Shown in pieces: positions 10,480 to 45,047 of a DNA stretch of 64,000 nt. The notes beneath the pieces are model-generated. The model was given only the letters and a program-made list of their open reading frames with translations, was not told where the DNA came from and made no database searches. Positions within the stretch are counted from its first letter, which is position 1, and each line of letters starts with the position of its first letter. Source of the DNA: a plasmid. A program made the position numbers and the translations under genes. The stretch lies in sequence record NZ_CP043850.1; one strand, given 5' to 3'.

Positions 10480-10773
10480 ATGAACACCTCCCTCACCTCC
10501 ATCACCCAGACCGCCCTGGACGGCATGGTCGTCGGCAACATCTTCGACACCGTCAACGACCTCACCTCCGAGGCGATGATCGCGCTGAAGGCCGTCATCG
10601 TCCTGTTCGGCGTCGTGGTCTTCCTCATCGGTGCCGTCGCCGCCAAGGGCAAGACCGCCGGCACGATCATGGCCGGCATCGGCGGCGGCTTCTTCATCTG
10701 GCTGGGCCTGTTCGGTGTCCAGTGGCTGGCCGAAGAGTTCGGCTCCACCGTCGCCGGCGTGCTGCTGGTCTGA
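10480..10773 (+). CDS. small two-TM membrane protein (VirB2/pilin-like candidate)
   Basis: 97-aa ORF with two hydrophobic helices and a Gly-rich stretch (IMAGIGGGFFIWLGLFG). Good RBS-like AAAGGAACACCCC upstream. Confidence 0.5.
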   Translation: MNTSLTSITQTALDGMVVGNIFDTVNDLTSEAMIALKAVIVLFGVVVFLIGAVAAKGKTAGTIMAGIGGGFFIWLGLFGVQWLAEEFGSTVAGVLLV

Positions 10774-10792
10774 GCCAGGAAGGACACGACCG

Positions 10793-18560: not shown

Positions 18561-18782
18561 TCGGCGTGAAATCTGGGTGTCCCGGTGGGCGCTCCCGCGC
18601 GCCCCAGGGCCCGCCAGAAACGTACGGGCGGCTGCCGCTCTGGCGGGTCGGTTGTGGCGAGTCATGTGGCGGGCGGACAGGGTCGGATGTGGCGCGCACG
18701 GCGCATGGCGGGGTTGTCAACGTCGGCCGAATATTGACCCCTTATCGTCGTTGAATTTTGACCCCCTCGAATTGATGTGTTG

Positions 18783-19562
18783 TTACTTGCCCGCGGGTTG
18801 TGCGGGGGTCTTGAGGAGCTCGCGGCGTGCCCTGGTGCGGTAGGAGTCCCCGCCGAGGGTGAGGACTTCCGCGTGGTGAACGAGTCGGTCGATCATCGCG
18901 GCCGCGACGATGTCGTCGGAGAAGATCTCACCCCATCTGCCGAAGGGCATGTTGCTGGTGAGCACGATCGAGCCTTGCTCGTAGCGGGACGCGATGAGTT
19001 GGAAGAACAGGTTCGCGGCGTCCGCGTCGAATGGCAGGTAGCCGACCTCGTCGATGATCAGCATCCGGTAGCGGCGGAGTCGTTTCAGCTCATGCTCGAG
19101 CCGGCCGGCTGCGTGCGCGGCCTGGAGTCGGCCAGCCCAGCCGGTCGCGGTATCGAACAACACCGGGTATCCAGCGTGCGCGGCTTTGATGCCGAGGCCG
19201 ATCGCGAGGTGTGTTTTGCCGACACCGGGTGGGCCGAGCAGGATCACGTTCTCCGCTTTCGGGATGAACGTTGTCGTCGCGAGGTGAGCGAGGACATCGC
19301 GACGCAGCGAGGGCTGATGGTCGGCGTTGAAGTCGTCCAGGGTCTTCACCGCGGGGAAGTGAGCGCCCGCGATTCGCAGTGTCGTTCCGTTCGCTTCCCG
19401 GTCCGCGACCTGGCGTTACAGGACCGCGGTGAGGTATTCCTCGTGGGACCAGCCCTCGGTGCGGGCTTGATCGCCGAGGGTCTCCCAGACCCGGCCGATC
19501 GTGGGGGTCTTCAACGCCCGGGTCAGGTATCCCATCGTCGCCGCGATCTCCGTTTCGGGCAT
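18783..19562 (-). pseudogene. istB: IstB helper ATPase gene inactivated by nonsense mutation (copy 1)
   Basis: Copy 2 encodes the full 259-aa IstB (GPPGVGKTHLA Walker A). In copy 1 codon CAA is TAA (plus-strand TTACAG at 19417-19422 versus TTGCAG at 24531-24536). This leaves a 71-aa N-terminal ORF and a 188-aa internal-Met ORF (18783-19349). Confidence 0.8.
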
Positions 19563-20821
19563 CAGAGGACCTCACCGGTTCGAGGATCGACAGGGAAATC
19601 GACGCCGAACAACTCGTCGTAGTCGGGCAGTTCCCGAAACACCACGCTGGCCGCTGGCTGCCCGCGATGGTGCAGTCGTTCTCGGTCGCGTTTCGCGGCG
19701 CTGAACGTGGAGCGCAGCCCCCTCGCGATCTCGACGTGGACAGGGTCGATGACGGTCGCGTGTTTCGCCCAACAGCGTTCGTGGTCAGCGACGGTGCGGC
19801 CATCGCAGATCACGATCACTCGTGTCAGCGTGGCCGTCACATCCACCAGCCGCCCAATCACGCGAGGGTCAACGGAGTAGTCGTTGGCATCGATGCGGAC
19901 GTAGTAGTCCCGCGCCAATCGGACCCGGTTTCGCAGCCCCGTCACCGGCGGCAGCGGCGGCAACACGGTCATCGCCTGCAGATCCCGCTCCACCACGTCG
20001 ATAGGTCGCCCGCCCAGCGAGCGGATCGTGCGGGAGTTCGCCCGCGGGAGCCACTCCGCGAGTTGGCTGTTGAAACTGTCCGGTGACGCGAACGACCGCC
20101 CGGGCAGGAACGATGTCTCCATGTACTGGTTGTTGCGTTCGGTCATGCCCTTGAACTCCGGATCCCGCGGAGGGGCGAGCACGATCCTCGTCGCCAACGT
20201 TCCCGCGAACGCGGCCGCGGCCTGCGTGACAGTCCCCTTCCCCCCGATCGCGGCCTCACGATCCCAGACGAGCGTCTTCGAGACCCGCCCGACACGAGAG
20301 ATCAGCTGCCACATCCCCGCGACCAGATCGCCCGCCTGCCGGGACGGGAGCATCACCGCGGACAGGAACCGGGAGAACGTCAACGTCATCACGAGCACCG
20401 GCAGCATCAACGCTTGCCCATGCCCGACAGGGATCCGCGGCTCCGGGAACCACAGATCCATCTGCGCGCTCTCGCCAGGAAGATGAATCAGACGATCCGC
20501 GGGATCGACCCCGGCATACTCCGGACGAATCGTCCGGATCCGATCCTTCAGAATCGTGATCGAGTGTTCCCACCCGATCCGCTCCGCGATCACCGTCGCC
20601 GGCATCCTCGCATCCACCACCAAGAGCTTGCGGATCTCGGGCTCCGCAGCGTCAACGAGTGACCCTTTCCCTGCCCGCTGATACGACGGCGGCGTCTCTG
20701 ACGCCAACGCCGACCGCACCGTATTTCGCGCCACACCGAGCCGACGCACGATCTCCTTGATCGACACGCCCTCCGCCCGATGCAACCGCCTGATCTCTGC
20801 CCACTGTTCCAAATTGATCAC
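19562..20821 (-). CDS. istA: IS21-family transposase IstA
   Basis: 419-aa ORF with N-terminal HTH (MINLEQWAEIRRLHRAEGVSIKEIVRRLGVARNTV) and a DDE catalytic core. Overlaps the istB start. Confidence 0.9.
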   Translation of the reverse strand: MINLEQWAEIRRLHRAEGVSIKEIVRRLGVARNTVRSALASETPPSYQRAGKGSLVDAAEPEIRKLLVVDARMPATVIAERIGWEHSITILKDRIRTIRPEYAGVDPADRLIHLPGESAQMDLWFPEPRIPVGHGQALMLPVLVMTLTFSRFLSAVMLPSRQAGDLVAGMWQLISRVGRVSKTLVWDREAAIGGKGTVTQAAAAFAGTLATRIVLAPPRDPEFKGMTERNNQYMETSFLPGRSFASPDSFNSQLAEWLPRANSRTIRSLGGRPIDVVERDLQAMTVLPPLPPVTGLRNRVRLARDYYVRIDANDYSVDPRVIGRLVDVTATLTRVIVICDGRTVADHERCWAKHATVIDPVHVEIARGLRSTFSAAKRDRERLHHRGQPAASVVFRELPDYDELFGVDFPVDPRTGEVL

Positions 20822-20893
20822 CCTCCAAAGGATGCCCGGAAGGGGTCAAAATTCCCCGACGCTCAGGGGTCAGTATTCACGCGTCGTCGACAG

Positions 20894-23719: not shown

Positions 23720-23896
23720 GATGAGTCCTTTGTCATGTCGTCGAACGAGCAAGCCCGCGCGACTGGTGGGTAGTTTGCGCCTCGACGATGTGGCGACTGC
23801 ATTCACGGTAACTTTCGGGCGCCCGCGATGTCAACGTCGGCCGAATATTGACCCCTTATCGTCGTTGAATTTTGACCCCCTCGAATTGATGTGTTG

Positions 23897-24676
23897 TTAC
23901 TTGCCCGCGGGTTGTGCGGGGGTCTTGAGGAGCTCGCGGCGTGCCCTGGTGCGGTAGGAGTCCCCGCCGAGGGTGAGGACTTCCGCGTGGTGAACGAGTC
24001 GGTCGATCATCGCGGCCGCGACGATGTCGTCGGAGAAGATCTCACCCCATCTGCCGAAGGGCATGTTGCTGGTGAGCACGATCGAGCCTTGCTCGTAGCG
24101 GGACGCGATGAGTTGGAAGAACAGGTTCGCGGCGTCCGCGTCGAATGGCAGGTAGCCGACCTCGTCGATGATCAGCATCCGGTAGCGGCGGAGTCGTTTC
24201 AGCTCATGCTCGAGCCGGCCGGCTGCGTGCGCGGCCTGGAGTCGGCCAGCCCAGCCGGTCGCGGTATCGAACAACACCGGGTATCCAGCGTGCGCGGCTT
24301 TGATGCCGAGGCCGATCGCGAGGTGTGTTTTGCCGACACCGGGTGGGCCGAGCAGGATCACGTTCTCCGCTTTCGGGATGAACGTTGTCGTCGCGAGGTG
24401 AGCGAGGACATCGCGACGCAGCGAGGGCTGATGGTCGGCGTTGAAGTCGTCCAGGGTCTTCACCGCGGGGAAGTGAGCGCCCGCGATTCGCAGTGTCGTT
24501 CCGTTCGCTTCCCGGTCCGCGACCTGGCGTTGCAGGACCGCGGTGAGGTATTCCTCGTGGGACCAGCCCTCGGTGCGGGCTTGATCGCCGAGGGTCTCCC
24601 AGACCCGGCCGATCGTGGGGGTCTTCAACGCCCGGGTCAGGTATCCCATCGTCGCCGCGATCTCCGTTTCGGGCAT
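23897..24676 (-). CDS. istB: IS21-family helper ATPase IstB (intact)
   Basis: 259 aa with Walker A GPPGVGKTHLA and Walker B LLIIDEVGY. Confidence 0.9.
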   Translation of the reverse strand: MPETEIAATMGYLTRALKTPTIGRVWETLGDQARTEGWSHEEYLTAVLQRQVADREANGTTLRIAGAHFPAVKTLDDFNADHQPSLRRDVLAHLATTTFIPKAENVILLGPPGVGKTHLAIGLGIKAAHAGYPVLFDTATGWAGRLQAAHAAGRLEHELKRLRRYRMLIIDEVGYLPFDADAANLFFQLIASRYEQGSIVLTSNMPFGRWGEIFSDDIVAAAMIDRLVHHAEVLTLGGDSYRTRARRELLKTPAQPAGK

Positions 24677-25935
24677 CAGAGGACCTCACCGGTTCGAGGA
24701 TCGACAGGGAAATCGACGCCGAACAACTCGTCGTAGTCGGGCAGTTCCCGAAACACCACGCTGGCCGCTGGCTGCCCGCGATGGTGCAGTCGTTCTCGGT
24801 CGCGTTTCGCGGCGCTGAACGTGGAGCGCAGCCCCCTCGCGATCTCGACGTGGACAGGGTCGATGACGGTCGCGTGTTTCGCCCAACAGCGTTCGTGGTC
24901 AGCGACGGTGCGGCCATCGCAGATCACGATCACTCGTGTCAGCGTGGCCGTCACATCCACCAGCCGCCCAATCACGCGAGGGTCAACGGAGTAGTCGTTG
25001 GCATCGATGCGGACGTAGTAGTCCCGCGCCAATCGGACCCGGTTTCGCAGCCCCGTCACCGGCGGCAGCGGCGGCAACACGGTCATCGCCTGCAGATCCC
25101 GCTCCACCACGTCGATAGGTCGCCCGCCCAGCGAGCGGATCGTGCGGGAGTTCGCCCGCGGGAGCCACTCCGCGAGTTGGCTGTTGAAACTGTCCGGTGA
25201 CGCGAACGACCGCCCGGGCAGGAACGATGTCTCCATGTACTGGTTGTTGCGTTCGGTCATGCCCTTGAACTCCGGATCCCGCGGAGGGGCGAGCACGATC
25301 CTCGTCGCCAACGTTCCCGCGAACGCGGCCGCGGCCTGCGTGACAGTCCCCTTCCCCCCGATCGCGGCCTCACGATCCCAGACGAGCGTCTTCGAGACCC
25401 GCCCGACACGAGAGATCAGCTGCCACATCCCCGCGACCAGATCGCCCGCCTGCCGGGACGGGAGCATCACCGCGGACAGGAACCGGGAGAACGTCAACGT
25501 CATCACGAGCACCGGCAGCATCAACGCTTGCCCATGCCCGACAGGGATCCGCGGCTCCGGGAACCACAGATCCATCTGCGCGCTCTCGCCAGGAAGATGA
25601 ATCAGACGATCCGCGGGATCGACCCCGGCATACTCCGGACGAATCGTCCGGATCCGATCCTTCAGAATCGTGATCGAGTGTTCCCACCCGATCCGCTCCG
25701 CGATCACCGTCGCCGGCATCCTCGCATCCACCACCAAGAGCTTGCGGATCTCGGGCTCCGCAGCGTCAACGAGTGACCCTTTCCCTGCCCGCTGATACGA
25801 CGGCGGCGTCTCTGACGCCAACGCCGACCGCACCGTATTTCGCGCCACACCGAGCCGACGCACGATCTCCTTGATCGACACGCCCTCCGCCCGATGCAAC
25901 CGCCTGATCTCTGCCCACTGTTCCAAATTGATCAC
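24676..25935 (-). CDS. istA: IS21-family transposase IstA
   Basis: Identical to 19562-20821. Confidence 0.9.
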   Translation of the reverse strand: MINLEQWAEIRRLHRAEGVSIKEIVRRLGVARNTVRSALASETPPSYQRAGKGSLVDAAEPEIRKLLVVDARMPATVIAERIGWEHSITILKDRIRTIRPEYAGVDPADRLIHLPGESAQMDLWFPEPRIPVGHGQALMLPVLVMTLTFSRFLSAVMLPSRQAGDLVAGMWQLISRVGRVSKTLVWDREAAIGGKGTVTQAAAAFAGTLATRIVLAPPRDPEFKGMTERNNQYMETSFLPGRSFASPDSFNSQLAEWLPRANSRTIRSLGGRPIDVVERDLQAMTVLPPLPPVTGLRNRVRLARDYYVRIDANDYSVDPRVIGRLVDVTATLTRVIVICDGRTVADHERCWAKHATVIDPVHVEIARGLRSTFSAAKRDRERLHHRGQPAASVVFRELPDYDELFGVDFPVDPRTGEVL

Positions 25936-26080
25936 CCTCCAAAGGATGCCCGGAAGGGGTCAAAATTCCCCGACGCTCAGGGGTCAGTATTCACGCGTCG
26001 TCGACAGGGGTCCCTCGCCACAAACGACCGAATCTGTCGAGTCAGTTGCAGAGCGCCGGGGTCAAGGGAACGACTCCGCC

Positions 26081-27708: not shown

Positions 27709-29129
27709 AGTTGAGTCCCGCATAGTGGTGTAGCGCCCGGTGGTCGGGCGTGTCGTCTCAGACGTGGACGCGGCCACCGTGTGATCCGTCGAGTCAACCT
27801 TCCACAGAATCCTCGAATGGAGTCATCACGATGACCGCTCCTCATATTCTCGACCCTGCCGGCCTGCTCGGAGAAGCCCTGTCTGAAGCGTCCCCGGACA
27901 TGATGCGCCATCTGCTGCAGACCATGATCAACACCTTGCTGTCCGCGGATGCCGACGCGGTGGTCGGTGCCGAATGGGGCAAGCCCAGCTCCTCGCGCAC
28001 TGCTCAGCGGAACGGGTACCGCCACCGGGACCTGGACACCCGGGTCGGCACCCTGGACGTGGCCATCCCCAAGCTCAGATCGGGCACGTACTTCCCGGAC
28101 TGGCTACTTGAACGCAGGAAGAGAGCGGAGTCGGCGCTGATCACCGTGGTCGCTGACTGCTACCTCGCCGGGGTCTCGACCCGACGGATGGACAAGCTGG
28201 TCAAGACTCTGGGCGTCAACGCCCTGTCCAAGTCCCAAGTCTCCCGGATGGCCACCGAGCTCGACGAGCAGGTGGAGGCCTTCCGCCACCGGCCGCTCGG
28301 GGAGGCGGGACCGTTCACGTTCGTTGCCGCGGACGCGTTGACGATGAAGGTGCGTGAGGGCGGGCGTGTGGTCAACGCGGTGGTGCTCATCGCCACCGGG
28401 GTCAACGGCGACGGCCACCGCGAAGTGTTGGGCCTGCGGGTGGCCACCAGCGAGACCGGGGCGGCGTGGAACGAGTTCTTCGCCGACCTGGTCGCCCGGG
28501 GCCTGGCCGGGGTCCGGCTGGTCACCTCTGATGCCCACCCCGGGCTCAAGGACGCCATCGCCGCGAACCTGCCCGGTGCGGTGTGGCAACGCTGCCGCAC
28601 CCACTACGCGGCGAACCTGATGGGCATCACCCCGAAGAGCATGTGGCCGGCGGTGAAGGCCATGCTCCACTCGGTCTACGACCAGCCCGATGCCGCCAGC
28701 GTCAACGCCCAGTTCGACCGGCTGCTGGACTACGTGAGCGAGAAACTGCCGGTGGTGGCCGAGCACCTCGATGCTGCCCGGGCCGACATCCTGGCGTTCA
28801 CCACATTCCCCAAGGACGTCTGGACCCAGATCTGGTCGAACAACCCGGCCGAGCGGCTCAACCGCGAGATCCGCCGCCGCACCGACGCGGTGGGCATCTT
28901 CCCCAACCGGGCGGCCATCGTCAGGCTAGTGGGTGCGGTGCTGGCCGAGCAGACCGATGAATGGGCCGAGGGTCGACGCTACCTCGGTCTCGAAGTCCTG
29001 GCCCGCTGCCGACTCACCACCGTGACCAACACCGGAGACGAGGTGGACCCCGACACCGAACTCAACCTCGGCCTCAGCGCCTGACCCCCATGAAGGATCA
29101 GACCGCTACACCATCACGAGGGGCTTGAC
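27709..29129 (+). mobile_element. IS256-family insertion sequence (about 1.42 kb) with 8-bp target-site duplication
   Basis: Imperfect about 27-bp terminal IRs (AGTTGAGTCCCGCATAGTGGTGTAGCG / rc GGTCAAGCCCCTCGTGATGGTGTAGCG). Flanked by the direct repeat CCGGCGAG (27701-27708 and 29131-29138). Encodes a mutator-type transposase. Confidence 0.8.
27831..29084 (+). CDS. IS256-family (mutator-type) transposase
   Basis: 417 aa from MTAPHILDPAGLL, RBS GGAG upstream. Conserved IS256 transposase blocks (DxxVxTxxGxREVLG, ...WQRCxxH, NxxERxNReIRRRT). Confidence 0.85.
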   Translation: MTAPHILDPAGLLGEALSEASPDMMRHLLQTMINTLLSADADAVVGAEWGKPSSSRTAQRNGYRHRDLDTRVGTLDVAIPKLRSGTYFPDWLLERRKRAESALITVVADCYLAGVSTRRMDKLVKTLGVNALSKSQVSRMATELDEQVEAFRHRPLGEAGPFTFVAADALTMKVREGGRVVNAVVLIATGVNGDGHREVLGLRVATSETGAAWNEFFADLVARGLAGVRLVTSDAHPGLKDAIAANLPGAVWQRCRTHYAANLMGITPKSMWPAVKAMLHSVYDQPDAASVNAQFDRLLDYVSEKLPVVAEHLDAARADILAFTTFPKDVWTQIWSNNPAERLNREIRRRTDAVGIFPNRAAIVRLVGAVLAEQTDEWAEGRRYLGLEVLARCRLTTVTNTGDEVDPDTELNLGLSA

Positions 29130-30876: not shown

Positions 30877-31019
30877 GGAAGCTGGAGCGACGCGCGGCAA
30901 CATCTGGTCAGCGTCCAGTCGGGTATACCCCTTTACACACCCCCCGCCGCCACGAGAGGATCACGTCAGAGTGGGTTCATTTTGGACCCGTTGGACATAC
31001 CTGACGGAGGGTCTTAGAC

Positions 31020-31598
31020 GTGGTTGGACAGACTGTGGGGTACGTGCGGGTGAGCTCGGCGGAGCAGAACCTGGACCGCCAGCTCGAGGCGGTGGGGGAG
31101 TGCGACCGTGTCTTCCAGGACAAGATCTCCGGCAGCTCCCGCGCCAAGCGCGCCGGGCTGGCGGAGCTGATGCGGTACGTCCGCGAGGGGGATCTGGTGA
31201 AGGTCGCCTCCATGGACCGGCTGGGCCGGGACACCCGGGACCTGTACGCCATCGTGGACGAACTGACCGACAAGGGGTGCGCGGTGCAGTTCGTGTCCGA
31301 GCGGATCACCGTGGACAAGTCCGGCACCTCCCCGGTGGACGGGCTCATGCTGGGCATCCTGGCCGCGTTCGCTGAGTTCGAGCGTCGACGGATCAAGGAG
31401 CGCCAGGCAGAAGGCATCGCCCTGGCCAAGACGAGAGGCAAGTACGTGCAGGCCCCGAAGCTCTCGGACACCGACGTGGAGCAGGCCCGGGTGATGATCG
31501 AGATGGGGATCCCGAAGGCTGAGGTCGCTCGCACCTTCGGGGTCAGCCGGCAAACCCTGTACACCTCCCTCGCTCGCGGAGCAACGATGTTGCCTTGA
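31020..31598 (+). CDS. serine recombinase (resolvase/invertase family)
   Basis: 192 aa with catalytic-Ser motif GYVRVSSAEQNLDRQ, the resolvase core (DRLGRD) and a C-terminal HTH (VARTFGVSRQTLYTSL). Confidence 0.9.
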   Translation: MVGQTVGYVRVSSAEQNLDRQLEAVGECDRVFQDKISGSSRAKRAGLAELMRYVREGDLVKVASMDRLGRDTRDLYAIVDELTDKGCAVQFVSERITVDKSGTSPVDGLMLGILAAFAEFERRRIKERQAEGIALAKTRGKYVQAPKLSDTDVEQARVMIEMGIPKAEVARTFGVSRQTLYTSLARGATMLP

Positions 31599-31866
31599 GT
31601 GCCCCAAGGGGAGAGTCAGACCCCTGCTAGTAAGCTTCACGGGTAGGGGTAATGGTGAACCACCAACGGCTCGACTGTAGGGCATTTTTGTGCAGTCCGT
31701 GCATTTACCAAATTGGTTTAGAAAATCCTACGGACCCGCCCGACGCAGATATCTTTATATCGGTCCTCTCCTCCTTTAATCTCCATGCCCCTTGGGTCAC
31801 GGCAGTCGGCGTGGCGGCTATGAAATACCCCAGCGCTTTAGCGACACGCTGACGAACATCGAAAGA

Positions 31867-33693
31867 TCAATCAGTCGCCATCTCATTGAGCTTCTGCAGC
31901 CAACTCTTCACGTCCCCCGCAGGGTCTGCTTCTTTTAATCTATCCAATGTCATTTTTTCAAATGCTTCGTCCGCGAGGCGCCTCTTTACGATTTCCTCCT
32001 TTATGGGTCTGTGATCAGGCGCGTTTTTGGTAGCGTCGCTTACGAGCTTAGGGACGTTGCAGTCGTCTGTAACTTCAACCCGCACCCCCAGCGCTTCGAA
32101 AATGGCCTCCGGGTGTAGATAGTTCTCCATCATCTTCTTTGAAGTGAGTGTTGCAAACGATCCGTCACCGCGATTGTTTACCGCGTCGACGGATTGTTGG
32201 TATTTACTAACGTCATTGTCATAAAGATGAAACTCGCGGCGTCGTAAATCTTTTAGGTACCGCTTGCTTACCCACTGGCCCAGAGTGCCCCCTCCCTGGG
32301 GAACAAATGCAAAACGATGGTCTGCCATGAGATCTGGGTACGCTCCGGGATCTTCCTCATGCAACTTTCTAGAGATCTTCTGGAGCGACGTAACGTCATG
32401 TGGGCCCTCAACGCATATGAGAACTTTAACTCGATTGTCCGGCTGCACACCGAGTTCATCAGCGAGCTCTGCCCACATATCGTCATTTCCTTGTAAGATT
32501 GAGGGCTCTTCTGAGTAAATGTCCTTACGTATATACCGAATACTCTTTGCTGGCAAATGGGAAACGAATCCGGGACTATGGGAAGTGAGGATGACCTGAG
32601 TTCCGGGAACTTCGGCCATGAGCTGGAATGAGTCGAGCAGGATTTTCTGATTACGGGGGTGCTGTGATGTCTCTGGCTCTTCGAGTGCGTAGATTACAGA
32701 TGATTTATCACTGGACTCAAGCATGCGCTGGGCCTCAGCTTTGAAGAAGCTCACCAGGATTAGCCGACGAACTCCAGAGCCACGCTTGTTTATGGCCACC
32801 CCATTGGAGCCATGCAATGCGACAGAGAAGAGACTATGCCAGCGAGGGTCACTCTTAAACTCGGGGACTAACCCTTCGGCGATAGCGGGGTCGATCTCTG
32901 AGAGGGCCTCGTGAGTTCGAGACGCCAAATCCGTCGCCTTGCCTCGAACTGCTTCTACGACCTCCTCCAGGAGCTTCTGGACAGAGTCTTCAGCTAGCGC
33001 GGCTGTGATCGCCATTTTCATGGGTTCCTGGACTTCGTCATCTGCATCAGTACTTTTGCGATCTGACTGGAACAGGGCAAAGTAAGGCAGATAACCGGTC
33101 AATTTGGTGAATATTTTACCGCCATCTTCTTTACCTAGAGAGATTTCGGATTCTGACAAATTTAGATCTTCGCATCCCCATAGGGCGGCTCTTAGGTCAG
33201 GGTTAGAAGCCTTGTTGACATGGTTGTATTCTGACGGGTCAAGACGAGTTCTGGCCAGTGACTTAAGTGCCGTATTTGTTAGAGAGAGTAGGTTATCTAG
33301 CTCCTTATTTATAGGATGTTGGCATACTACATACGTCTCTTCTTTCGGCTTGGAGCTGGTGCATACCCACCGCTTTCTGAGCTGAAGGCATCCGTCCTTG
33401 TCCAACAGGTGTTCCTGGGCGAGGCTCGTTTCTGCCTGCGCATCGAGGACTAGGGAAGGGGGAAGCTCGGAAAACTTACATGTAATTTGGAAAAAATTTT
33501 CCGATGTGGAGACATTTTTATCGGTGATATCCGGTTTTACGACATTTCCTCCAAAGAATATATCTAGAGCCTCTAGTATCGTTGACTTGCCAACGTCGTT
33601 ACGGCCAACGATTGTGGTCAGGTCTTCGAAGCTAACCCATTTCTCTTCTCGGTAGCCACGGAAATTTTTTAATGAGACGGCAATGAGCTTCAT
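31867..33693 (-). CDS. OLD-family ATP-dependent nuclease (N-terminal ABC/AAA_21 ATPase + C-terminal Toprim), class 1 (no helicase partner)
   Basis: Walker A GRNDVGKSTILEAL near the N-terminus (start probably MKLIAVSLKNF at 33693; the ORF extends to 33783). Signature/Walker B region ...VIYALEEPETSQHP. C-terminal Toprim-like block VLICVEGPHD...FHLYDNDVS. This gene and its flanks are about 45% GC versus about 68-70% elsewhere. Confidence 0.75.
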   Translation of the reverse strand: MKLIAVSLKNFRGYREEKWVSFEDLTTIVGRNDVGKSTILEALDIFFGGNVVKPDITDKNVSTSENFFQITCKFSELPPSLVLDAQAETSLAQEHLLDKDGCLQLRKRWVCTSSKPKEETYVVCQHPINKELDNLLSLTNTALKSLARTRLDPSEYNHVNKASNPDLRAALWGCEDLNLSESEISLGKEDGGKIFTKLTGYLPYFALFQSDRKSTDADDEVQEPMKMAITAALAEDSVQKLLEEVVEAVRGKATDLASRTHEALSEIDPAIAEGLVPEFKSDPRWHSLFSVALHGSNGVAINKRGSGVRRLILVSFFKAEAQRMLESSDKSSVIYALEEPETSQHPRNQKILLDSFQLMAEVPGTQVILTSHSPGFVSHLPAKSIRYIRKDIYSEEPSILQGNDDMWAELADELGVQPDNRVKVLICVEGPHDVTSLQKISRKLHEEDPGAYPDLMADHRFAFVPQGGGTLGQWVSKRYLKDLRRREFHLYDNDVSKYQQSVDAVNNRGDGSFATLTSKKMMENYLHPEAIFEALGVRVEVTDDCNVPKLVSDATKNAPDHRPIKEEIVKRRLADEAFEKMTLDRLKEADPAGDVKSWLQKLNEMATD

Positions 33694-34135
33694 CGAGGGC
33701 CTGAATTCTTTGAAGGTGGCGGTACTTTGCGTGGGTTGTGTGAGTATAAAAGAACGATGACGGAAGGCCTGTTGAAAAATCACGACACTACATGCGCGAC
33801 GATCAAGACCATCTGGTATGGGCCATCGTGCCAGGCGCCCTGAGTAGAGGCAAGACTTTGGTGAGGGGAGTTCTGAGAGCGGGTGCTGTTCCTTCAGATC
33901 GAGTGGCGACAGCGGCGACGCTCGTGTAGGTCGAGGCCCACCTGAAGGGCCTGCATAACTGGCCGGGGCGAGTATCTGAGGATGCCGTCGCCTGCTTGCC
34001 CCGGGTAAGAGCGTCAGAGGGCAGCGGCAACTCGAAGAGGGGACGCTGTAAAAAAATGCACTTCAGAAGAGGAGCGCATTTGACCCGTGCGGGCACAACT
34101 CGAGCACCAACCTGCTCCTGCTACTCCCATGGGTG

Positions 34136-36976
34136 TCAGGCCGTTAACTCGGCGTAGCGGGTGAAGAGCAGTTCCTGACGCTCCAGCTCGGTGCGGCAAC
34201 GCCGTGCGGCGCCGAAGGCCTTGTCCACCTCCGTGTCCAGCGCGTCGTGGGCCTTCACCAAAGCCGGGTCCATGCCTAGTGCCGTGTAGTGCTGAGCTAG
34301 GGAGCGTCCGGGGTGCAGAGCGCGTGCGGCCAGCACCTTCTGGCCGGCGGCAATGATCTTCTCCCGTTGTCCCTCGGCCAGAGGCGGTAGGGGCAGGGTG
34401 GTCCACGTCAACGTGGAACCGAACCGCAAGTCCGACTTGAGGCGGCCGCCGACGGTCTTCTGCCAGGTCAGGAACATGCTCGAGGAGAGCATGGCGAACT
34501 GGAACCCGTCTGGGTCCGGGCACTGGAAGGTCGCATCGCTGGCGATCACCGTCTGCGGCAGTAACTGAACGGGGAAGTAGGGACGTTCCTCGGAGACATG
34601 GCGTGGGATGCACACGTAATCCGTGGCCAACGCCTGCACCTGACGGAACAGGTGGTGATGACGGTAATCGCGGGTAGACGCTGCGGCAGAGCGGCCCCGG
34701 AACTGTCGGACCGCCTCCACGCGCTCGTGCAACACCGGGGAGGCGTGGATCTCCGCCCCGGTCGCCTGGACCAGCCACAGGCACCATCGCTCTTCAGAAT
34801 GCAACAGCTCACGGGCACCGACGTAGGGCCGCAGGTACTTCGCGGCGATCGGATCTGCTCGTACCTGCTCCACCTCCGTAGCACCGACCAGCAGATGCCC
34901 ATCGTCCGTGGGCTTGGATCCGTACATCGGCATGTTTAGCTCCGCCGAGATCGGCCGGCTGCGCTTGGTCACCAACACGTTGGGCCCGTCCACCAGGTAG
35001 GCGTTGATCGTCTTCACCCCGGGCACTTCGCGGGCCTCACTGCGCGCGTGCTCGTATTTGAACAGGCGCGCCTTGGCATCGGGGTCGCGGGTGAAGCCGA
35101 TGATCACGCAGTGCACCGCGGCCTTGCCGGGGGCCTGGGAGTCCCACGCGAAAGTGCGGTGGGCGAACTTGATCCGCCAGCCGGCGGCGAAGATCGGGGC
35201 GAACAATCGAGCCGGCTGGTCCCCCTGCACGATCGAGTTCGTGGTCACGAACGCCCACTCCCCATCCCGATCGGTGAACAAGCGCAAGGTGAGCGCGTGC
35301 CAGGCGGTGACGTAGTCCAGGCGAGAGAGATCCTTGTTGCCACCCCAGGCGGCGTGCATCAAGGCGAGCTGCGCCCTGGTTCGGGTGGTGTCACCCAGGA
35401 ACGGGGGGTTGCCGAACACGAACGTGCGCCCGGCCGGGGCGGGGAGGGCCTGAGACCAGTCGAGGGTGAGCGCGTCGTGCTGGTAGATCGTGGCGGTGAT
35501 CTTGATCGGCAGACGCACCGGGGCCTGGCCGAGCGCGGCGGCCAGCTGCCGATTGGCCTGATGGTCCACGAGGAACATGGCGGTCTCGGCGATCTTGGCC
35601 GGCCACCAGTTGATCTCGACCCCGTAGAACCGGTCGATGTGGATCCGCTGGTCCAAGCTCACGTCCAGGGACAGGTCCAGGGACCCGGTGCGGCGGCGCT
35701 GGTCGGCCAGCAGGTCCGTCTCGATCTCGCGCAGCTTGGCGTAGGCCAGGTTCAAGAAGTTGCCGGCCCCGCAGGCCGGGTCGACGTAGATGTTGGCGGC
35801 CATCTCCTCGATCAGCCCGATCACCTCACGCCGGGTGGTGGTCTTGTTCTGGATGAGCCGGTCCGCGCGGGCGCGGTACTCGTCCAGGAAGAGCGGGCCG
35901 ATGGTCTTGAGGATGTTCTCCTCGGAGGTGTAGTGCTCCCCGTCCCCGCGGCGGGCCTGCTTGGACTTGACCAGTTGGAACATGGAGCCGAATACGGCCG
36001 GGGAGATCTGGGTCCACCGGAACCGGCAGGCTGCCACGAGCGCGTCCCGGAAGTCGTTGGTGAGGAAGCCGGCCGTGGAGGTGCCGTCGAAGATGCCGCC
36101 GTTGACGTAGGGGAAGCGGGCCAGAGAGTCCGGCACACCGCGGCGCCGGTTCTCGGGGGTGTTGAGCACGCGGAAGAGCGCGTCGAGCTGGGGGCCGAGG
36201 TTGTCGGCGGTGGTGTCCCACTCCACCCAACGCTGGAACAGGTCGGCCTCCCACAGGCCGGCGTCGTCTCCGTAGAGCAGGAACAGCAGCCGGGTGAGCA
36301 GGATCGAGGCCTGCTGGGTGGCGAACTCCTCCTCTTCGGCGTCCTCGGGGGCCTCCTCGCCCACGGGTACGTCCACCTCGTCCCCGACGAGGGCGGTGAA
36401 CATGGAGGCCATCAGCTGCGCGGCCGCGATGGAGGCCTCTTGTTCCTCGGTCTTGGTCACGGTGTCCCGGCCGGCCAGGAACATCAGCTGGTCCACGTGA
36501 TCGGTGGCCTCTTGCACGGTGAACTCGGACACCCAGCCGGCCTCGCCCAGACGTTCGACGCGGATGCGGGCGAAGTCTGTGACGAGCACGTACTTGGGCC
36601 ACTCGTGCTGACCGATGGATCCGCCGGCCAGGTAGTCCAGGGCCTGGGCGTGGGCGACGTCGAGGTCGGCACCCAGGGACTTGGCCTCGCCCAGGGCGAC
36701 GCCGGACCAGAAGAAGTCGATGTAGCCGGCCCCGCCGGTGGAGGCGCGCGCGGCCCCGCGCTCGAACAGGTCGATGCGCTCGGGGATCACCCCGAAGGTT
36801 CGCAGCAGGTCGGACCAGAACTGCTGGGCGAAGGACTTCTCCGTGTGGGTCTGTCCATCGGCGCGCCAGCGGTCGATGCGCTGACCCCAGGCATGTCCGA
36901 AGTCGTCCAGGGCTGTGCGGATGACGCCGCGATCTGCAAGTTGCTCCACAGGCACAACGTACAGCGACCTGAGCAA
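34136..36976 (-). CDS. MmeI-family Type IIL restriction-modification enzyme (fused endonuclease + N6-adenine methyltransferase + TRD)
   Basis: 946 aa. N-terminal PD-ExK block with MmeI-like spacing, D-X9-E-X-K (IDFFWSGVALGEAKS). SAM-binding motif I (DPACGAGNFL) and motif IV (NPPFLGD) in the central MTase. Long C-terminal target-recognition region. Confidence 0.75.
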   Translation of the reverse strand: MLRSLYVVPVEQLADRGVIRTALDDFGHAWGQRIDRWRADGQTHTEKSFAQQFWSDLLRTFGVIPERIDLFERGAARASTGGAGYIDFFWSGVALGEAKSLGADLDVAHAQALDYLAGGSIGQHEWPKYVLVTDFARIRVERLGEAGWVSEFTVQEATDHVDQLMFLAGRDTVTKTEEQEASIAAAQLMASMFTALVGDEVDVPVGEEAPEDAEEEEFATQQASILLTRLLFLLYGDDAGLWEADLFQRWVEWDTTADNLGPQLDALFRVLNTPENRRRGVPDSLARFPYVNGGIFDGTSTAGFLTNDFRDALVAACRFRWTQISPAVFGSMFQLVKSKQARRGDGEHYTSEENILKTIGPLFLDEYRARADRLIQNKTTTRREVIGLIEEMAANIYVDPACGAGNFLNLAYAKLREIETDLLADQRRRTGSLDLSLDVSLDQRIHIDRFYGVEINWWPAKIAETAMFLVDHQANRQLAAALGQAPVRLPIKITATIYQHDALTLDWSQALPAPAGRTFVFGNPPFLGDTTRTRAQLALMHAAWGGNKDLSRLDYVTAWHALTLRLFTDRDGEWAFVTTNSIVQGDQPARLFAPIFAAGWRIKFAHRTFAWDSQAPGKAAVHCVIIGFTRDPDAKARLFKYEHARSEAREVPGVKTINAYLVDGPNVLVTKRSRPISAELNMPMYGSKPTDDGHLLVGATEVEQVRADPIAAKYLRPYVGARELLHSEERWCLWLVQATGAEIHASPVLHERVEAVRQFRGRSAAASTRDYRHHHLFRQVQALATDYVCIPRHVSEERPYFPVQLLPQTVIASDATFQCPDPDGFQFAMLSSSMFLTWQKTVGGRLKSDLRFGSTLTWTTLPLPPLAEGQREKIIAAGQKVLAARALHPGRSLAQHYTALGMDPALVKAHDALDTEVDKAFGAARRCRTELERQELLFTRYAELTA

Positions 36977-37112
36977 GCCCCCTCATCTGAGATAACCGGT
37001 TCGGGAGCCACGCCGCCGGCGTAGAGGGGGCAGGGGGGTGGTGTAGCTCTGCCTAGGATCGGTGGCGATGCACCCTCGCATCGCGTCATCTGCTCGAGCA
37101 AGGAACTCGCCC

Positions 37113-37778
37113 ATGTCACGACGCTCTCTGGCTTCTCTGGCCACTGCTGCTGCTTTAGTCGCCACCGCTGTCCTCGGGGGTGCGGGATCGGCGGCAGCCG
37201 GCACCACGTACTCGGCCCCGTTGCGCACGGCTGTGGCGTCGTTGCCGGTCGCGGCGGAGAACAATGCCGGCTATGACCGGGCCGCCCAGTTCGGGGACTG
37301 GAAGGATGCGAACAGGGACTGCCAGAACACTCGGGCAGAGGTGTTGATCGCAGAGTCCAAGACCACCCCGAAGTTCACGACGGCCCGTAAGTGCACGGTG
37401 GCCACGGGCAAGTGGGTGAGCAGCTGGGATCTGCGCACGCACACGTCTGCATCGACGGTGCAGATCGATCACATGGTGCCCGTGCATGAGGCGTGGGGCT
37501 CGGGAGCCCGGTACTGGACCAAGGCCAAGCGGGTGGCGTTCTACAACGACTTGGGGGATGCCCGGTCGCTGAACGCGCAGACCTCGGCGTTGAACTCGGC
37601 CAAGCAGGCCCGCGGTCCGGAGCAGTGGCTGCCGCCGAAGAACCAGTGCAAGTACATCGCTGACTGGACCGCGGTGAAGATCCGCTGGGGGTTGAAGGCT
37701 GACGCCACGGAGAAGGCGTTCTTGGTGAAGAAGGCCGCCTCCTGCGCAAACACCACCCTGAAGGTGACCCGGTACTGA
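37113..37778 (+). CDS. secreted DUF1524/HNH-type nuclease
   Basis: Signal peptide MSRRSLASLATAAALVATAVLGGAGSAAA, RBS AAGGAA. DUF1524 His-Me-finger pattern (QIDHMVPVHEAW...NDLGDARSLNAQTSALNSAKQ). The ORF track extends 17 codons upstream. Confidence 0.6.
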   Translation: MSRRSLASLATAAALVATAVLGGAGSAAAGTTYSAPLRTAVASLPVAAENNAGYDRAAQFGDWKDANRDCQNTRAEVLIAESKTTPKFTTARKCTVATGKWVSSWDLRTHTSASTVQIDHMVPVHEAWGSGARYWTKAKRVAFYNDLGDARSLNAQTSALNSAKQARGPEQWLPPKNQCKYIADWTAVKIRWGLKADATEKAFLVKKAASCANTTLKVTRY

Positions 37779-44973: not shown

Positions 44974-45047
44974 TGGAGGTGCCTACGGGATTCGAACCCG
45001 TGTAAACGGTTTTGCAGGCCGCTGCCTATCCTCTCGGCCAAGGCACC
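44974..45047 (-). tRNA. tRNA-Cys (anticodon GCA)
   Basis: Minus-strand sequence GGTGCCTTGGCCGAGAGGATAGGCAGCGGCCTGCAAAACCGTTTACACGGGTTCGAATCCCGTAGGCACCTCCA. 7-bp acceptor stem GGTGCCT/AGGCACC, T-arm ACGGG-TTCGAAT-CCCGT, anticodon loop CUGCAAA with U33-GCA, encoded CCA. Confidence 0.85.

What the first reader, a model, noticed from the sequence alone, without database searches (positions are those of the whole stretch)
31600..34135. Compositional island: the OLD-family gene and flanks are about 45% GC in a roughly 69% GC replicon
The whole window is GC-rich with strong third-position GC bias. The sequence from about 31.6 to 34.1 kb is different: A/T-rich codons (AAA, TTT, ATT), homopolymer A/T runs and an AT-rich convergent intergenic region at 31.6-31.87 kb. 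This is a sharp amelioration boundary that marks very recent acquisition from a low-GC donor. The borders sit next to a resolvase gene on one side and the RM gene stop on the other.
Basis: seen in the sequence. Interest (0 to 1): 0.6.

Follow-up and report, generated by a model that had tools for sequence, protein, structure and literature searches.

The report
Foreign low-GC OLD nuclease gene cassette
A single anti-phage nuclease gene of the OLD family, about 50% GC, sits as a recently imported cassette between a restriction-modification gene and a resolvase gene on a 67% GC Micrococcus plasmid-like element; this is a clear but ordinary case of horizontal gene transfer.

Summary
The interval 31600-34135 is 51.4% GC and the OLD ORF is 49.5% (GC3 52%). 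The rest of the window is 67.3% (z = -9.6). Codon adaptation is 0.30 against 0.68 +/- 0.07 for the other ORFs.

A maximum-likelihood fit places the low-GC core at 31631-33820. The segment with no counterpart in related backbones is about 31580-34147.

The gene (31867-33693, minus strand, 608 aa) encodes a stand-alone, Class 1-type OLD-family ABC-ATPase/Toprim nuclease. The identical protein is recorded from Micrococcus luteus.

The flanking MmeI-type IIG restriction-modification gene and the resolvase gene have host-like composition. Both occur on related Micrococcus plasmids without OLD. One related contig carries four unrelated genes in the same MmeI-resolvase slot.

The donor is not a classical low-GC organism. 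The nearest relatives (68-75% aa) are all Micrococcales, and in them the gene stays at 50-54% GC whatever the host GC. I found no repeats or site remnants at the borders. The resolvase's probable res site lies on the far side of the resolvase gene from OLD.

Verdict: a real horizontally acquired defence cassette, a new member of a known kind, of modest interest.

The parts
31631..33820 (.). Low-GC core of the island (49.8% GC)
   Evidence: A maximum-likelihood single-segment fit on the whole window gives these boundaries. The 200-nt GC profile agrees.
31867..33693 (-). OLD-family gene, 608 aa. [quoted passage not shown] The true start is the ATG at 33693, not the GTG at 33783.
   Evidence: Pfam AAA_15 matches at 2.3e-73 over residues 1-377. 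PADLOC GajA and Old models match, one of them spanning residues 289-605. The AlphaFold2 model has pLDDT 80.6, and the top Foldseek PDB hits are 6P74 (TsOLD), then GajA. The acidic residues are invariant in alignment A1. The 29 closest homologues are 608-631 aa (most exactly 608) and all cover 100% of the 608-aa query that starts at this ATG. GC is 49.5%, GC3 0.52 and CAI 0.30.
31599..31866 (.). Convergent intergenic region between the resolvase stop and the OLD stop, 53.7% GC
   Evidence: Coordinates and GC are. It has no homologue in PLSDB or in any fetched locus. It shows only weak hairpins and no convincing terminator.
33694..34135 (-). Orphan 442-nt spacer between the MmeI stop and the OLD start. 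It presumably holds the OLD promoter. It also contains a terminator-like hairpin plus U-run for MmeI at about 34046-34082, and a doubtful 97-aa ORF (33803-34096).
   Evidence: GC is 60.5% for 33784-34135. No homologue was found anywhere. The hairpin comes from the fold. The ORF has non-coding-like GC1/2/3 of 0.56/0.63/0.63 and no Pfam hit.
34136..36976 (-). MmeI-family Type IIG restriction-modification gene, with host-like composition (GC3 0.89). It forms the right wall of the slot.
   Evidence: All five MmeI Pfam domains are present. PADLOC REase_MTase_IIG scores 1033 bits. An 81% nt orthologue sits on Micrococcus plasmid pLMV7 without OLD. Its homologues are all high-GC actinobacteria.
31020..31598 (+). 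Small serine resolvase (192 aa), with host-like composition (GC3 0.90). It forms the left wall of the slot.
   Evidence: Pfam Resolvase plus HTH_7. Orthologues at 88-90% nt identity occur on the M. luteus plasmid NZ_CP101529 and on contig L102, without OLD.
30921..30930 (.). Palindrome GGGTATACCC, a probable res crossover point of the resolvase, on the side away from OLD
   Evidence: The window, L002 and L091 are alignable from exactly this point rightwards. To the left they carry three unrelated sequences.
37062..37778 (+). GmrSD_C-type HNH endonuclease gene, a further defence gene of the same neighbourhood
   Evidence: Pfam GmrSD_C at 5e-6. On plasmid NZ_CP101529 it lies about 350 nt from the resolvase, with OLD and MmeI absent.

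Best explanation
The low-GC stretch is a horizontally acquired single-gene defence cassette.

The gene. It encodes a stand-alone (Class 1-type) OLD-family enzyme. By homology, an ABC-type ATPase head controls a Toprim two-metal nuclease. That nuclease damages nucleic acid during phage infection and aborts the infection.

The location. The cassette occupies a replaceable cargo slot on a Micrococcus (luteus-type) conjugative, metal-resistance plasmid-like element. The slot is bounded by the 3' ends of a resident MmeI-type IIG restriction-modification gene and a resident serine resolvase gene.

The origin. The gene belongs to a Micrococcales lineage of OLD genes that sit at 50-54% GC in every host examined. 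It most likely came from a mid-GC relative such as a Glutamicibacter- or Arthrobacter-like bacterium. It arrived too recently to have drifted towards the 67-73% GC of its present host and replicon.

What is shown:
- The composition and codon anomaly.
- The domain architecture and intact catalytic residues.
- The lack of a conserved partner gene.
- Presence/absence polymorphism of the cassette in related backbones.
- The near-clonality of the cassette.

What is inferred:
- The anti-phage role.
- The nuclease mechanism.
- The donor group.
- That the cassette entered or is exchanged by homologous recombination in the flanking conserved genes rather than by a site-specific or transpositional event.
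For: Composition:
- 49.5-51.4% GC versus 67.3%, z = -9.6.
- Maximum-likelihood segment 31631-33820.
- CAI 0.30 versus 0.68 +/- 0.07.
- It is the only ORF with GC3 below 0.76 in the window.

Identity:
- AAA_15 at 2.3e-73, and PADLOC GajA and Old hits reaching residue 605.
- The fold search is topped by Class 1 TsOLD (6P74) and then GajA.
- E429/D433 and D492/D494 are invariant. They match the spacing of the TsOLD metal ligands E377/D381 and D431/D433 (PMC7049728).

Stand-alone status:
- No neighbour family occurs in more than 8 of 84 related loci.
- No MmeI homologue lies next to OLD in any of those loci.

Host and replicon:
- The identical protein is annotated from M. luteus.
- The window carries VirB4-like, M23/NlpC and FtsK-like genes, metal-transporting ATPases and IS elements.
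- It shares 92-96% nt segments with Micrococcus plasmids.

The slot:
- Plasmid NZ_CP101529 has the resolvase and the GmrSD gene adjacent, with OLD and MmeI absent.
- pLMV7 has MmeI without OLD, and its homology ends at 34140.
- Contig L102 has MmeI, then four unrelated genes at 62-66% GC, then a convergent resolvase. Its homology to the window stops at 34148 and resumes at 31579.

Lineage composition (gene GC / flank GC):
- Window 49.5/67.3.
- Kocuria 50.7/63.9.
- Leucobacter 54.4/63.4.
- Brevibacterium 54.2/62.3.
- Glutamicibacter spp. 51.8-53.8 / 53.8-61.4.
- Arthrobacter glacialis 52.7/57.7.

Recency:
- Zero differences in the OLD coding sequence among six contigs, versus SNP clusters in MmeI, GmrSD and the resolvase.
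- The protein cluster has 2 member sequences.
Against: - No donor sequence is known. The closest relative is 75% aa and about 70% nt identical, homology ends at the start codon, and the flanks are orphan.
- The contigs compared for SNPs were retrieved by exact protein identity, so only synonymous variation could have shown up.
- Low GC is common across this gene family: the gene is below its flanks in 61 of 75 loci, by a mean of 9.4 points in hosts above 60% GC. Composition alone therefore overstates recency.
- No Pfam Toprim or DUF4435 model matches the C-terminal domain. The Toprim call rests on PADLOC models, the fold match and the motifs.
- TM-scores for the full-length fold matches are low (0.32-0.38), as expected for a flexible multi-domain model.
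- No experiment shows expression. The gene has 19 ATA, AGA and TTA codons, which are almost absent from the other genes here.
- The insertion mechanism is not demonstrated.
Confidence: 0.8

Rival explanations
1. The low GC is a maintained property of the gene lineage and not a sign of a recent import or of donor composition. Selection could favour weak expression of a toxic nuclease through rare codons, or silencing of AT-rich DNA. Alternatively, constant hopping between hosts could keep these genes near 50-54% GC everywhere.
For: - Gene GC is flat at 50-54% across eight Micrococcales loci whose flanks range from 54% to 67%.
- Synonymous sites between these copies are near saturation. Only 35-41% of identical residues use the same codon. 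The copies are therefore old relative to one another, yet none has ameliorated.
- Family-wide, the gene is below its flanks in 61 of 75 loci, and it never exceeds about 60% GC even in a 72% GC host.
- Kocuria shows the same one-gene dip in a different context.
Against: - Rare ATA, AGA and TTA codons are scattered and not positionally conserved.
- In the mid-GC Glutamicibacter JC586 the gene nearly matches its flanks (51.8 vs 53.8). That fits a mid-GC reservoir with repeated export.
- The cassette is absent from related Micrococcus backbones and is clonal, which points to recent arrival here anyway.
- Across the whole family, gene GC tracks flank GC with slope 0.73 and r = 0.85, so amelioration does happen.
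Confidence: 0.3
2. OLD works together with the adjacent MmeI-type restriction enzyme as a two-layer unit. Restriction is the first line. OLD is a latent back-up that fires when a phage disables restriction, in the manner of PrrC within type I RM loci or of PARIS.
For: - OLD lies directly downstream of the RM gene on the same strand.
- The five closest non-actinobacterial orthologues (50-52% identity, from several different phyla) all sit between hsdM and hsdS of type I RM operons.
- Every contig long enough to show it has MmeI, OLD and the resolvase together.
Against: - The two genes are separated by 442 nt that include a terminator-like hairpin after MmeI.
- MmeI orthologues occur without OLD, and OLD orthologues occur without MmeI in all 84 related loci.
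- The two genes have quite different compositions and histories.
- Linkage among contigs that were retrieved by identity is expected for a young clone.
Confidence: 0.2
3. The cassette is a discrete mobile element that was inserted by the neighbouring resolvase or by a transposase, and its ends lie at the compositional borders.
For: - A resolvase gene abuts the left border.
- A 26-nt imperfect inverted repeat brackets the gene at 31670-31695 and 34046-34071.
- Serine recombinase genes lie within 10 kb of OLD in 4 of the 84 related loci, one of them in a similar convergent arrangement (L065).
Against: - The inverted repeat is no better than chance. Its score was reached in 115 of 300 dinucleotide shuffles of the two flanks, and no direct repeat was found.
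- One arm of the repeat is simply the U-run of the MmeI terminator-like hairpin.
- The probable res site, where three backbones diverge, is upstream of the resolvase at 30921, on the side away from OLD.
- There is no transposase inside the island.
- The flanks have no copies elsewhere.
Confidence: 0.08
4. The whole MmeI-OLD-resolvase block was imported together, or the dip is an assembly chimera.
For: The three genes are always found together in the contigs that carry this exact OLD protein.
Against: - MmeI and the resolvase have host-like GC3 of 0.89-0.90.
- Both have 81-95% nt orthologues on other Micrococcus-type backbones that lack OLD.
- The same junctions recur at 99.6-100% identity in 21 contigs read from independent isolate and metagenome assemblies, which rules out a chimera.
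Confidence: 0.02

Closest known systems
Class 1 OLD family nucleases (P2 Old, Thermus scotoductus OLD PDB 6P74, Vibrio cholerae Vc OLD, E. coli YbjD)
   Same: [quoted passage not shown]
- It has no adjacent helicase, reverse transcriptase or split Toprim gene.
- TsOLD is the best hit in both the PDB sequence search and the fold search.
- The Walker A lysine and the E...D / DxD acidic ligands are conserved.
- It gives a weak DUF2813 (PF11398) signal.
   Different: - It is only distantly related in sequence to TsOLD (E = 4.5e-8 over about 90 residues, 17% identity in the fold alignment).
- At 608 aa it is longer than TsOLD (525 aa).
- It sits inside a defence cluster next to RM and GmrSD-type genes, whereas the 2023 review describes Class 1 genes as isolated (PMC10568477). 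Vc OLD, however, also lies beside DarTG (PMC12392090).
- No activity data exist for this subfamily.
Gabija GajA (Class 2 OLD)
   Same: It has the same two-domain architecture. Many PADLOC GajA models match, one across residues 289-605. GajA structures rank 2-5 in the fold search.
   Different: There is no GajB/UvrD-like helicase gene next to it, either here or in 84 related loci.
PARIS (AriA/AriB, Class 4 OLD)
   Same: The best PADLOC hit is an AriA model (2.1e-60) over the ATPase region.
   Different: - That model covers only the generic AAA_15 region (residues 1-377).
- Here the Toprim domain is fused to the ATPase, not encoded separately.
- No DUF4435 signal was found in the C-terminal part.
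- No separate AriB gene is present.
Compositionally atypical genomic islands and defence-gene hotspots flanked by conserved genes
   Same: - It has a sharp GC, GC3 and codon-usage departure.
- It shows presence/absence polymorphism in related replicons.
- Different cargo occupies the same slot (OLD here, a peptidase/PIN set in L102).
- Mobility genes lie nearby.
   Different: - The island is a single gene.
- It has no tRNA target, no integrase of its own and no flanking repeats.
- Its boundaries fall at the 3' ends of two convergently arranged resident genes.
PrrC-type latent nucleases embedded in type I RM loci
   Same: OLD orthologues at 50-52% identity lie between hsdM and hsdS in five loci from several different phyla. 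Here OLD follows an RM gene.
   Different: The protein family differs. The partner here is a Type IIG enzyme, and a terminator-like spacer separates the two genes. No functional coupling has been shown.

Membership tests
OLD family nuclease | N-terminal ABC-type ATPase domain with Walker A, Walker B and H-loop | tested here: met
   Pfam AAA_15 matches at 2.3e-73 over its full length, with AAA_21 and AAA_23 also matching. G30, K36 and S37 (Walker A), E338/E339 and H372 are invariant in 24 homologues. The fold matches OLD, GajA, SMC and Rad50 heads.
OLD family nuclease | C-terminal Toprim domain with conserved acidic metal ligands (Glu...Asp and DxD) | tested here: met
   E429, D433, D492 and D494 are invariant. 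They match the pattern of TsOLD E377/D381 and D431/D433 (PMC7049728). A PADLOC GajA model aligns to residues 289-605. Full-length fold hits go to 6P74 and GajA. Caveat: no Pfam Toprim or DUF4435 hit was obtained on residues 382-608.
OLD family nuclease | ATP hydrolysis and metal-dependent nuclease activity | not testable with these tools
   This needs purified protein. Only conservation of the residues was shown.
Class 1 OLD (stand-alone) | Single gene without an adjacent UvrD-like helicase, retron reverse transcriptase/ncRNA or separate Toprim gene | tested here: met
   The neighbours here are MmeI and the resolvase. No neighbour family is shared by more than 8 of 84 related loci. No Rfam retron or other RNA was found in the window.
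Class 1 OLD (stand-alone) | Not proximal to other defence genes (as described in PMC10568477) | tested here: not met
   It is flanked by a Type IIG RM gene, with a GmrSD_C HNH gene nearby. This descriptor is already relaxed by Vc OLD, which lies next to DarTG (PMC12392090).
Gabija (GajA/GajB) | [quoted passage not shown] | tested here: not met
   Downstream is a 268-nt spacer and then the convergent resolvase gene. No helicase is conserved in the related loci.
PARIS (AriA/AriB) | Separate or fused DUF4435 Toprim effector AriB | tested here: not met
   No DUF4435 hit was obtained for the C-terminal 227 residues, even at E up to 10. The AriA hit covers only the generic ATPase region.
Horizontally acquired genomic island | Base composition and codon usage deviate from the host replicon | tested here: met
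   The GC departure has z = -9.6. GC3 is 0.52 versus 0.76-0.97. CAI has z = -5.3.
Horizontally acquired genomic island | Presence/absence polymorphism among closely related replicons | tested here: met
   OLD is absent from NZ_CP101529, pLMV7 and L102, which share the flanking genes at 81-95% nt identity. No Micrococcus plasmid in PLSDB carries it.
Horizontally acquired genomic island | Flanking direct repeats, att sites or terminal inverted repeats | tested here: not met
   The best inverted repeat is reached by 115 of 300 shuffles, and the best direct repeat is below every shuffle.
Horizontally acquired genomic island | Identifiable donor lineage | tested here: inconclusive
   The nearest relatives are all Micrococcales, at 75% aa or less and about 70% nt. 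Nothing lies between 75% and 100% identity in 5.8 billion protein clusters. The gene is absent from phage records, and an exact 34-mer finds nothing in JGI metagenome contigs.

The most novel reading that the evidence does not exclude
On this reading, the AT-richness is functional rather than a leftover. The gene carries 8 AUA, 6 AGA and 5 UUA codons, starting at codon 8. AUA and AGA are reported as vanished or unassigned in Micrococcus luteus. A potentially self-toxic nuclease would therefore be barely translated in the uninfected host. It would become translatable only when the tRNA supply changes, for example when a lower-GC phage brings its own tRNAs. Alternatively, the gene could be held silent by an Lsr2-type binder of AT-rich DNA. 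This would explain why the whole Micrococcales lineage of this gene stays at 50-54% GC in hosts whose local flanks reach 67% GC.
Probability: 0.08. Interest if true: 0.7.

Novelty: new member of a known kind. Interest (0 to 1): 0.3.

Why it matters
- It is a textbook-clean example of a one-gene defence cassette dropped into a plasmid cargo slot, with filled, differently filled and empty versions of the slot all available for comparison.
- It adds a well-populated but uncharacterised subfamily to the stand-alone OLD nucleases. More than 5000 homologues were found, many on conjugative plasmids. Very few members of the stand-alone class have been studied.
- It shows that for this gene family, low GC is a poor guide to donor identity, because the gene is AT-shifted in most hosts.
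- Two side observations could be followed up experimentally. The first is the recurrent placement of orthologues inside type I RM operons. The second is the load of codons that M. luteus is reported hardly to decode.
- None of this overturns current understanding.

Tried and rejected
1. Inverted repeat 31670-31695 / 34046-34071 as cassette ends: rejected as chance (115 of 300 shuffles reach its score). No direct repeat was found either.
2. Homologues of the two orphan flanks (31590-31870 and 33694-34140): none in PLSDB by sensitive blastn, and none by tblastx or short-word blastn against all fetched loci and the rest of the window.
3. Sigma-70-like promoter and intrinsic-terminator scans of 31400-34400: nothing above shuffle expectation. 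RNA folds gave only a plausible MmeI terminator hairpin, and no fold was significantly more stable than its shuffles.
4. Rfam scan of the whole window: only tRNA-Cys.
5. Pfam and NCBIfam on the C-terminal 227 residues: no Toprim or DUF4435 hit. The Toprim assignment had to come from PADLOC, the fold match and the motifs.
6. Look-up of the exact MmeI protein: not on record. The exact resolvase protein was found only in contigs that also carry OLD, so no empty site exists at 100% identity.
7. Phage carriers of the gene: one partial, 43%-identical hit only.
8. An exact 34-mer from the gene in JGI metagenome contigs: no match.
9. An Lsr2 gene in the window, as a possible silencer: none found. Plasmid pLMV7 does have one.
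10. Positional conservation of rare codons among eight orthologues: none.
11. The M. luteus genome paper and the original unassigned-codon papers are not held in the library. That claim rests on reviews (PMC4695839 and PMC6356944).
12. L010, which appeared to give a second context for OLD, is merely an ISL3-type insertion 17 nt inside the MmeI 3' end.
Full report

Yes, but the figures need correcting. The window is 66.7% GC overall. The stated interval 31600-34135 is 51.4% and the rest of the window is 67.3%. The ORF 31867-33783 is 49.5%, with GC at codon positions 1/2/3 of 0.58/0.38/0.52. The neighbouring resolvase and RM genes have GC3 of 0.90 and 0.89.

Among all 2536-nt windows that do not overlap the interval, the mean is 67.3%, the sd is 1.7 and the minimum is 62.2%. 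The interval is therefore 9.6 sd below the rest. The 1-kb and 200-nt profiles show no comparable dip anywhere else in the 64 kb. Every other likely gene has GC3 between 0.76 and 0.97.

A maximum-likelihood single-segment fit places the low-GC block at 31631-33820, at 49.8% GC. The right compositional edge falls about 300 nt before the RM stop codon, and 33821-34135 is intermediate at about 60-62%.

- AAA, TTT and ATT are 4- to 30-fold enriched.
- A/T runs of 5 or more occur at 3.15 per kb versus 0.11 per kb elsewhere.
- The codon adaptation index, measured against 33 other ORFs of the window, is 0.30 versus 0.68 +/- 0.07, z = -5.3.

**2. What is encoded?**

On the minus strand, 31867-33693 encodes a 608-aa protein. 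The longer GTG-initiated ORF in the mechanical list is not the real start. The closest homologues are almost all 608 aa and begin at the MKL... methionine.

Evidence for an OLD-family protein:
- Pfam AAA_15 covers residues 1-377 at E = 2.3e-73.
- PADLOC models for AriA (ATPase region only), many GajA models and Old all match. One GajA model aligns across residues 289-605.
- An AlphaFold2 model built from 24 homologues has mean pLDDT 80.6.
- Its best PDB matches are the Class 1 OLD nuclease of Thermus scotoductus (6P74), then Gabija GajA and retron Eco8 OLD proteins, followed by SMC/Rad50 heads.
- In the 24-sequence alignment, the Walker A lysine (K36), E338/E339, H372 and the acidic residues E429, D433, D492 and D494 are invariant.
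- The E-x3-D and D-x-D pattern corresponds to the metal ligands E377/D381 and D431/D433 of TsOLD (PMC7049728).
- No Pfam or NCBIfam Toprim model hits the C-terminal domain, so this subfamily is remote from the curated models.

The neighbours:
- The upstream neighbour on the same strand, 34136-36976, has all five MmeI-family domains. It is a Type IIG restriction-modification enzyme.
- The convergent neighbour, 31020-31598, is a 192-aa serine resolvase with an HTH_7 domain.
- Further right is a GmrSD_C-type HNH gene.

**3. What replicon and host?**

The identical protein is annotated from Micrococcus luteus and was found on 21 contigs from isolates and metagenomes. All of them align to the window at 99.6-100% identity.

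The window carries VirB4-like (AAA_10), M23/NlpC and FtsK-like genes. It also carries two P-type metal ATPases, a cation-efflux gene, two IS21 copies, an IS256-family element and an IS3-type integrase. It shares 92-96% identical segments with several Micrococcus plasmids.

It therefore looks like a conjugative, metal-resistance plasmid-like element. At 66.7% GC it is already below the roughly 73% of the M. luteus chromosome (PMC5502858).

**4. Is OLD alone the foreign part?**

Yes. MmeI and the resolvase are compositionally host-like, and both have independent histories on Micrococcus-type backbones:
- Plasmid pLMV7 has an 81% nt MmeI orthologue with no OLD. Its homology ends at window position 34140.
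- The M. luteus plasmid NZ_CP101529 has the resolvase (88% nt) about 350 nt from the GmrSD-type gene (95% nt), with both OLD and MmeI missing. Its homology stops at 31567 and resumes at 37051.
- Most telling is the metagenome contig L102. It has an MmeI gene that is 95% nt identical over its first two thirds, then four unrelated genes (M78 peptidase/HTH, an unknown, a PIN/VapC-like gene and an HTH_17 gene, at 62-66% GC), and then a convergent resolvase at 89.6% nt. Its homology to the window ends at 34148 and resumes at 31579.

The interval between the 3' ends of MmeI and the resolvase is therefore a cargo slot whose content differs between related backbones. The window's content is OLD.

**5. 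Where did it come from?**

The protein search shows a gap between 100% and 75% identity. Every relative at 66% identity or more that carries an organism name or title is a Micrococcales actinobacterium: Glutamicibacter, Leucobacter, Brevibacterium, Arthrobacter, Specibacter or Kocuria. At the DNA level, homology to those copies is about 70%. It is confined to the coding sequence and ends at the ATG. The two flanks are orphan sequences.

In that clade the gene is 50-54% GC whatever the surroundings:

| Locus | Gene GC (%) | Flank GC (%) |
|---|---|---|
| Window | 49.5 | 67.3 |
| Kocuria (plasmid-like contig) | 50.7 | 63.9 |
| Leucobacter | 54.4 | 63.4 |
| Brevibacterium | 54.2 | 62.3 |
| Glutamicibacter X7 | 52.2 | 61.4 |
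| G. arilaitensis | 53.8 | 59.4 |
| A. glacialis | 52.7 | 57.7 |
| Glutamicibacter JC586 | 51.8 | 53.8 |

Only 35-41% of identical residues use the same codon between these copies. The copies are therefore old relative to one another.

Across 75 loci of the wider family:
- The gene is below its flanks in 61 loci, by a mean of 5 points.
- In hosts above 60% GC the mean deficit is 9.4 points.
- Gene GC tracks flank GC with slope 0.73.
- Only two loci have a larger deficit than the window's 17.8 points.

The sensible reading is a mid-GC Micrococcaceae reservoir, in which the gene is near equilibrium, with export into higher-GC hosts. 'Low-GC donor' in the usual sense is not supported, and no donor can be named. 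No phage in the collection carries a close copy.

**6. How recent?**

GC3 of 0.52 in a replicon with GC3 near 0.9 shows no amelioration. This copy is in fact the most AT-rich of its clade. Among six independent contigs there is not one difference in the 1827-nt coding sequence. MmeI (14 SNPs within 35658-36383), the GmrSD gene and the resolvase all carry SNP clusters.

One caveat applies. The contigs were retrieved by exact protein identity, so only synonymous changes could have appeared. However, the 90%-identity cluster contains just two sequences. Recent arrival and clonal spread are therefore well supported, though they cannot be dated.

**7. How did it get in?**

Nothing at the borders looks like a recombination scar:
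- The longest inverted repeat bracketing the gene (31670-31695 and 34046-34071) is matched or beaten in 115 of 300 dinucleotide shuffles of the two flanks.
- No direct repeat stands out.
- One arm of that repeat is the U-run of a terminator-like hairpin that follows MmeI.

The resolvase is unlikely to be responsible. The window, L002 and NZ_CP101529 become alignable at exactly the palindrome GGGTATACCC (30921-30930), about 90 nt upstream of the resolvase start. To its left they have three unrelated sequences. That is the behaviour expected of a res crossover site, and it lies on the far side of the resolvase gene from OLD.

My inference is that cargo in this slot is exchanged by homologous recombination within the conserved flanking genes. 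How OLD first entered remains unknown.

**8. How does the gene product most likely work?**

By homology with characterised OLD proteins, it has a dimeric ABC ATPase head with an inserted dimerisation region. This head regulates a Toprim two-metal nuclease. Characterised members show these activities:
- TsOLD and P2 Old degrade DNA.
- Vc OLD nicks DNA and blocks phage replication.
- P2 Old has been reported to cut tRNA.

These come from PMC7049728, PMC10568477, PMC12392090 and PMC12445682.

No neighbour family recurs in more than 8 of 84 related loci, and none has an MmeI gene nearby. That fits the stand-alone Class 1 definition.

There is a side observation. The five closest non-actinobacterial orthologues (Sideroxydans, Nitrosospira, Nitrospira, Anaerolineae and Dehalococcoidia) all lie between hsdM and hsdS of type I RM operons. 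Together with the position just after a Type IIG gene here, this keeps open a role as a restriction-linked back-up. However, the 442-nt spacer, the terminator-like hairpin and the independent distributions of the two genes argue against obligate coupling.

**9. An oddity worth recording**

The gene contains 8 ATA, 6 AGA and 5 TTA codons, which is 31 per 1000. The 33 other ORFs have 1.7 per 1000. The first of these codons in OLD is at codon 8.

Reviews cite AUA and AGA as codons that have vanished from, or are unassigned in, M. luteus (PMC4695839; PMC6356944 speaks of six unassigned codons). I could not inspect the host's tRNA set. The only tRNA gene in the window is tRNA-Cys.

Arguing against a hard translation block, AGA occurs 15 times and ATA 3 times in other ORFs here. 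These include an IS256-family transposase whose element is inserted here but absent from a related contig, and an FtsK-like gene. The rare codons are also not positionally conserved among orthologues. Poor translation is likely. Codon-gated expression is only a low-probability speculation.

**10. Verdict**

The finding is a genuine, statistically overwhelming compositional island caused by horizontal acquisition of one defence gene into a plasmid cargo slot. It is not right about a low-GC donor or about recombination remnants.

The gene is a new, uncharacterised member of the known stand-alone OLD nucleases, and the phenomenon is a familiar one. Interest is modest.

Noticed in passing
window 30921-30930 (and 30913-31019): The palindrome GGGTATACCC lies about 90 nt upstream of the resolvase start. 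The window, contig L002 and plasmid NZ_CP101529 share sequence from exactly this point rightwards. To its left they carry three unrelated sequences. It is probably the res crossover site.
   Followed up: partly
window 34148-34958 and 35658-36383 (MmeI gene): The MmeI gene is mosaic. Against contig L102 it is 95% nt identical over 34958-36963, but only 72% or unalignable over the target-recognition and C-terminal third. That suggests a specificity-domain swap. Otherwise identical contigs carry a cluster of 14 SNPs in 35658-36383.
   Followed up: partly
L016-L020 (OLD at about 10001-11800 in each; 8108-9895 in L016): OLD orthologues at 50-52% identity occur in Sideroxydans, Nitrosospira, Nitrospira, Anaerolineae and Dehalococcoidia. 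All of them sit between hsdM and hsdS of type I restriction-modification operons, with hsdR downstream.
   Followed up: partly
L104 10001-11851 (Kocuria sp. cx-116 plasmid-like contig): A 68%-identical OLD orthologue forms the same one-gene GC dip (50.7% in 64-70% GC flanks). Its neighbours are different: PLDc_2, a flavin reductase and a relaxase. A second, unexamined block at about 41% GC lies at about 19-20 kb, overlapping the 5' part of a 524-aa unknown gene that sits next to an SRA/ScoMcrA-like gene.
   Followed up: partly
window 31867-33693: The gene has 8 ATA, 6 AGA and 5 TTA codons, whereas 13,408 other codons in the window have 23 in total. AUA and AGA are described in reviews as vanished or unassigned in M. 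luteus. The host's tRNA set could not be checked.
   Followed up: partly
window 27709-29129: An IS256/Mutator-family element (transposase at 27750-29084) is inserted here relative to the otherwise identical M. luteus contig L001. The window and L001 also differ by rearrangements of large blocks.
   Followed up: no
window 18715-20893 and 23829-26007: Two directly repeated IS21-family copies (2179 nt, 99.95% identical) share an IstA-like transposase ORF. An IstB gene (23897-24676) lies in the right-hand copy. The two copies bracket an alpha/beta-hydrolase gene, which looks like a composite transposon.
   Followed up: no
window 44974-45047 (-): A tRNA-Cys(GCA) gene sits on this plasmid-like element, next to an IS3-type integrase gene.
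   Followed up: no
L010 1-807 (junction at window-equivalent 34153): In one metagenome contig, an ISL3-like transposase gene and its end abut the OLD upstream region 17 nt inside the 3' end of MmeI. This is an IS insertion that truncates or displaces the RM gene while keeping OLD.
   Followed up: partly
window 33803-34096 (-): A 97-aa ORF lies in the spacer between MmeI and OLD. Some metagenome annotations call it a gene. It has no family hit and a GC-by-position pattern that does not look coding, so it is probably not a gene.
   Followed up: partly
L096 6598-12000 (Glutamicibacter sp. X7 chromosome): The 75%-identical OLD orthologue lies in a roughly 7-kb block at about 51% GC, downstream of ispH-ychF. 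The block also holds a 534-aa AAA_21 protein with a weak DUF4435 signal, which could be a fused PARIS-like protein. In G. arilaitensis, ispH and ychF again lie upstream of OLD, and the genes between them and OLD are instead a DUF5677 protein and a 1244-1273-aa unknown protein.
   Followed up: no
plasmid collection hits H26-H43: Homologues of this OLD subfamily at about 35% identity lie on many large conjugative enterobacterial plasmids. In total 362 plasmid records match, 291 of them predicted to be conjugative.
   Followed up: no
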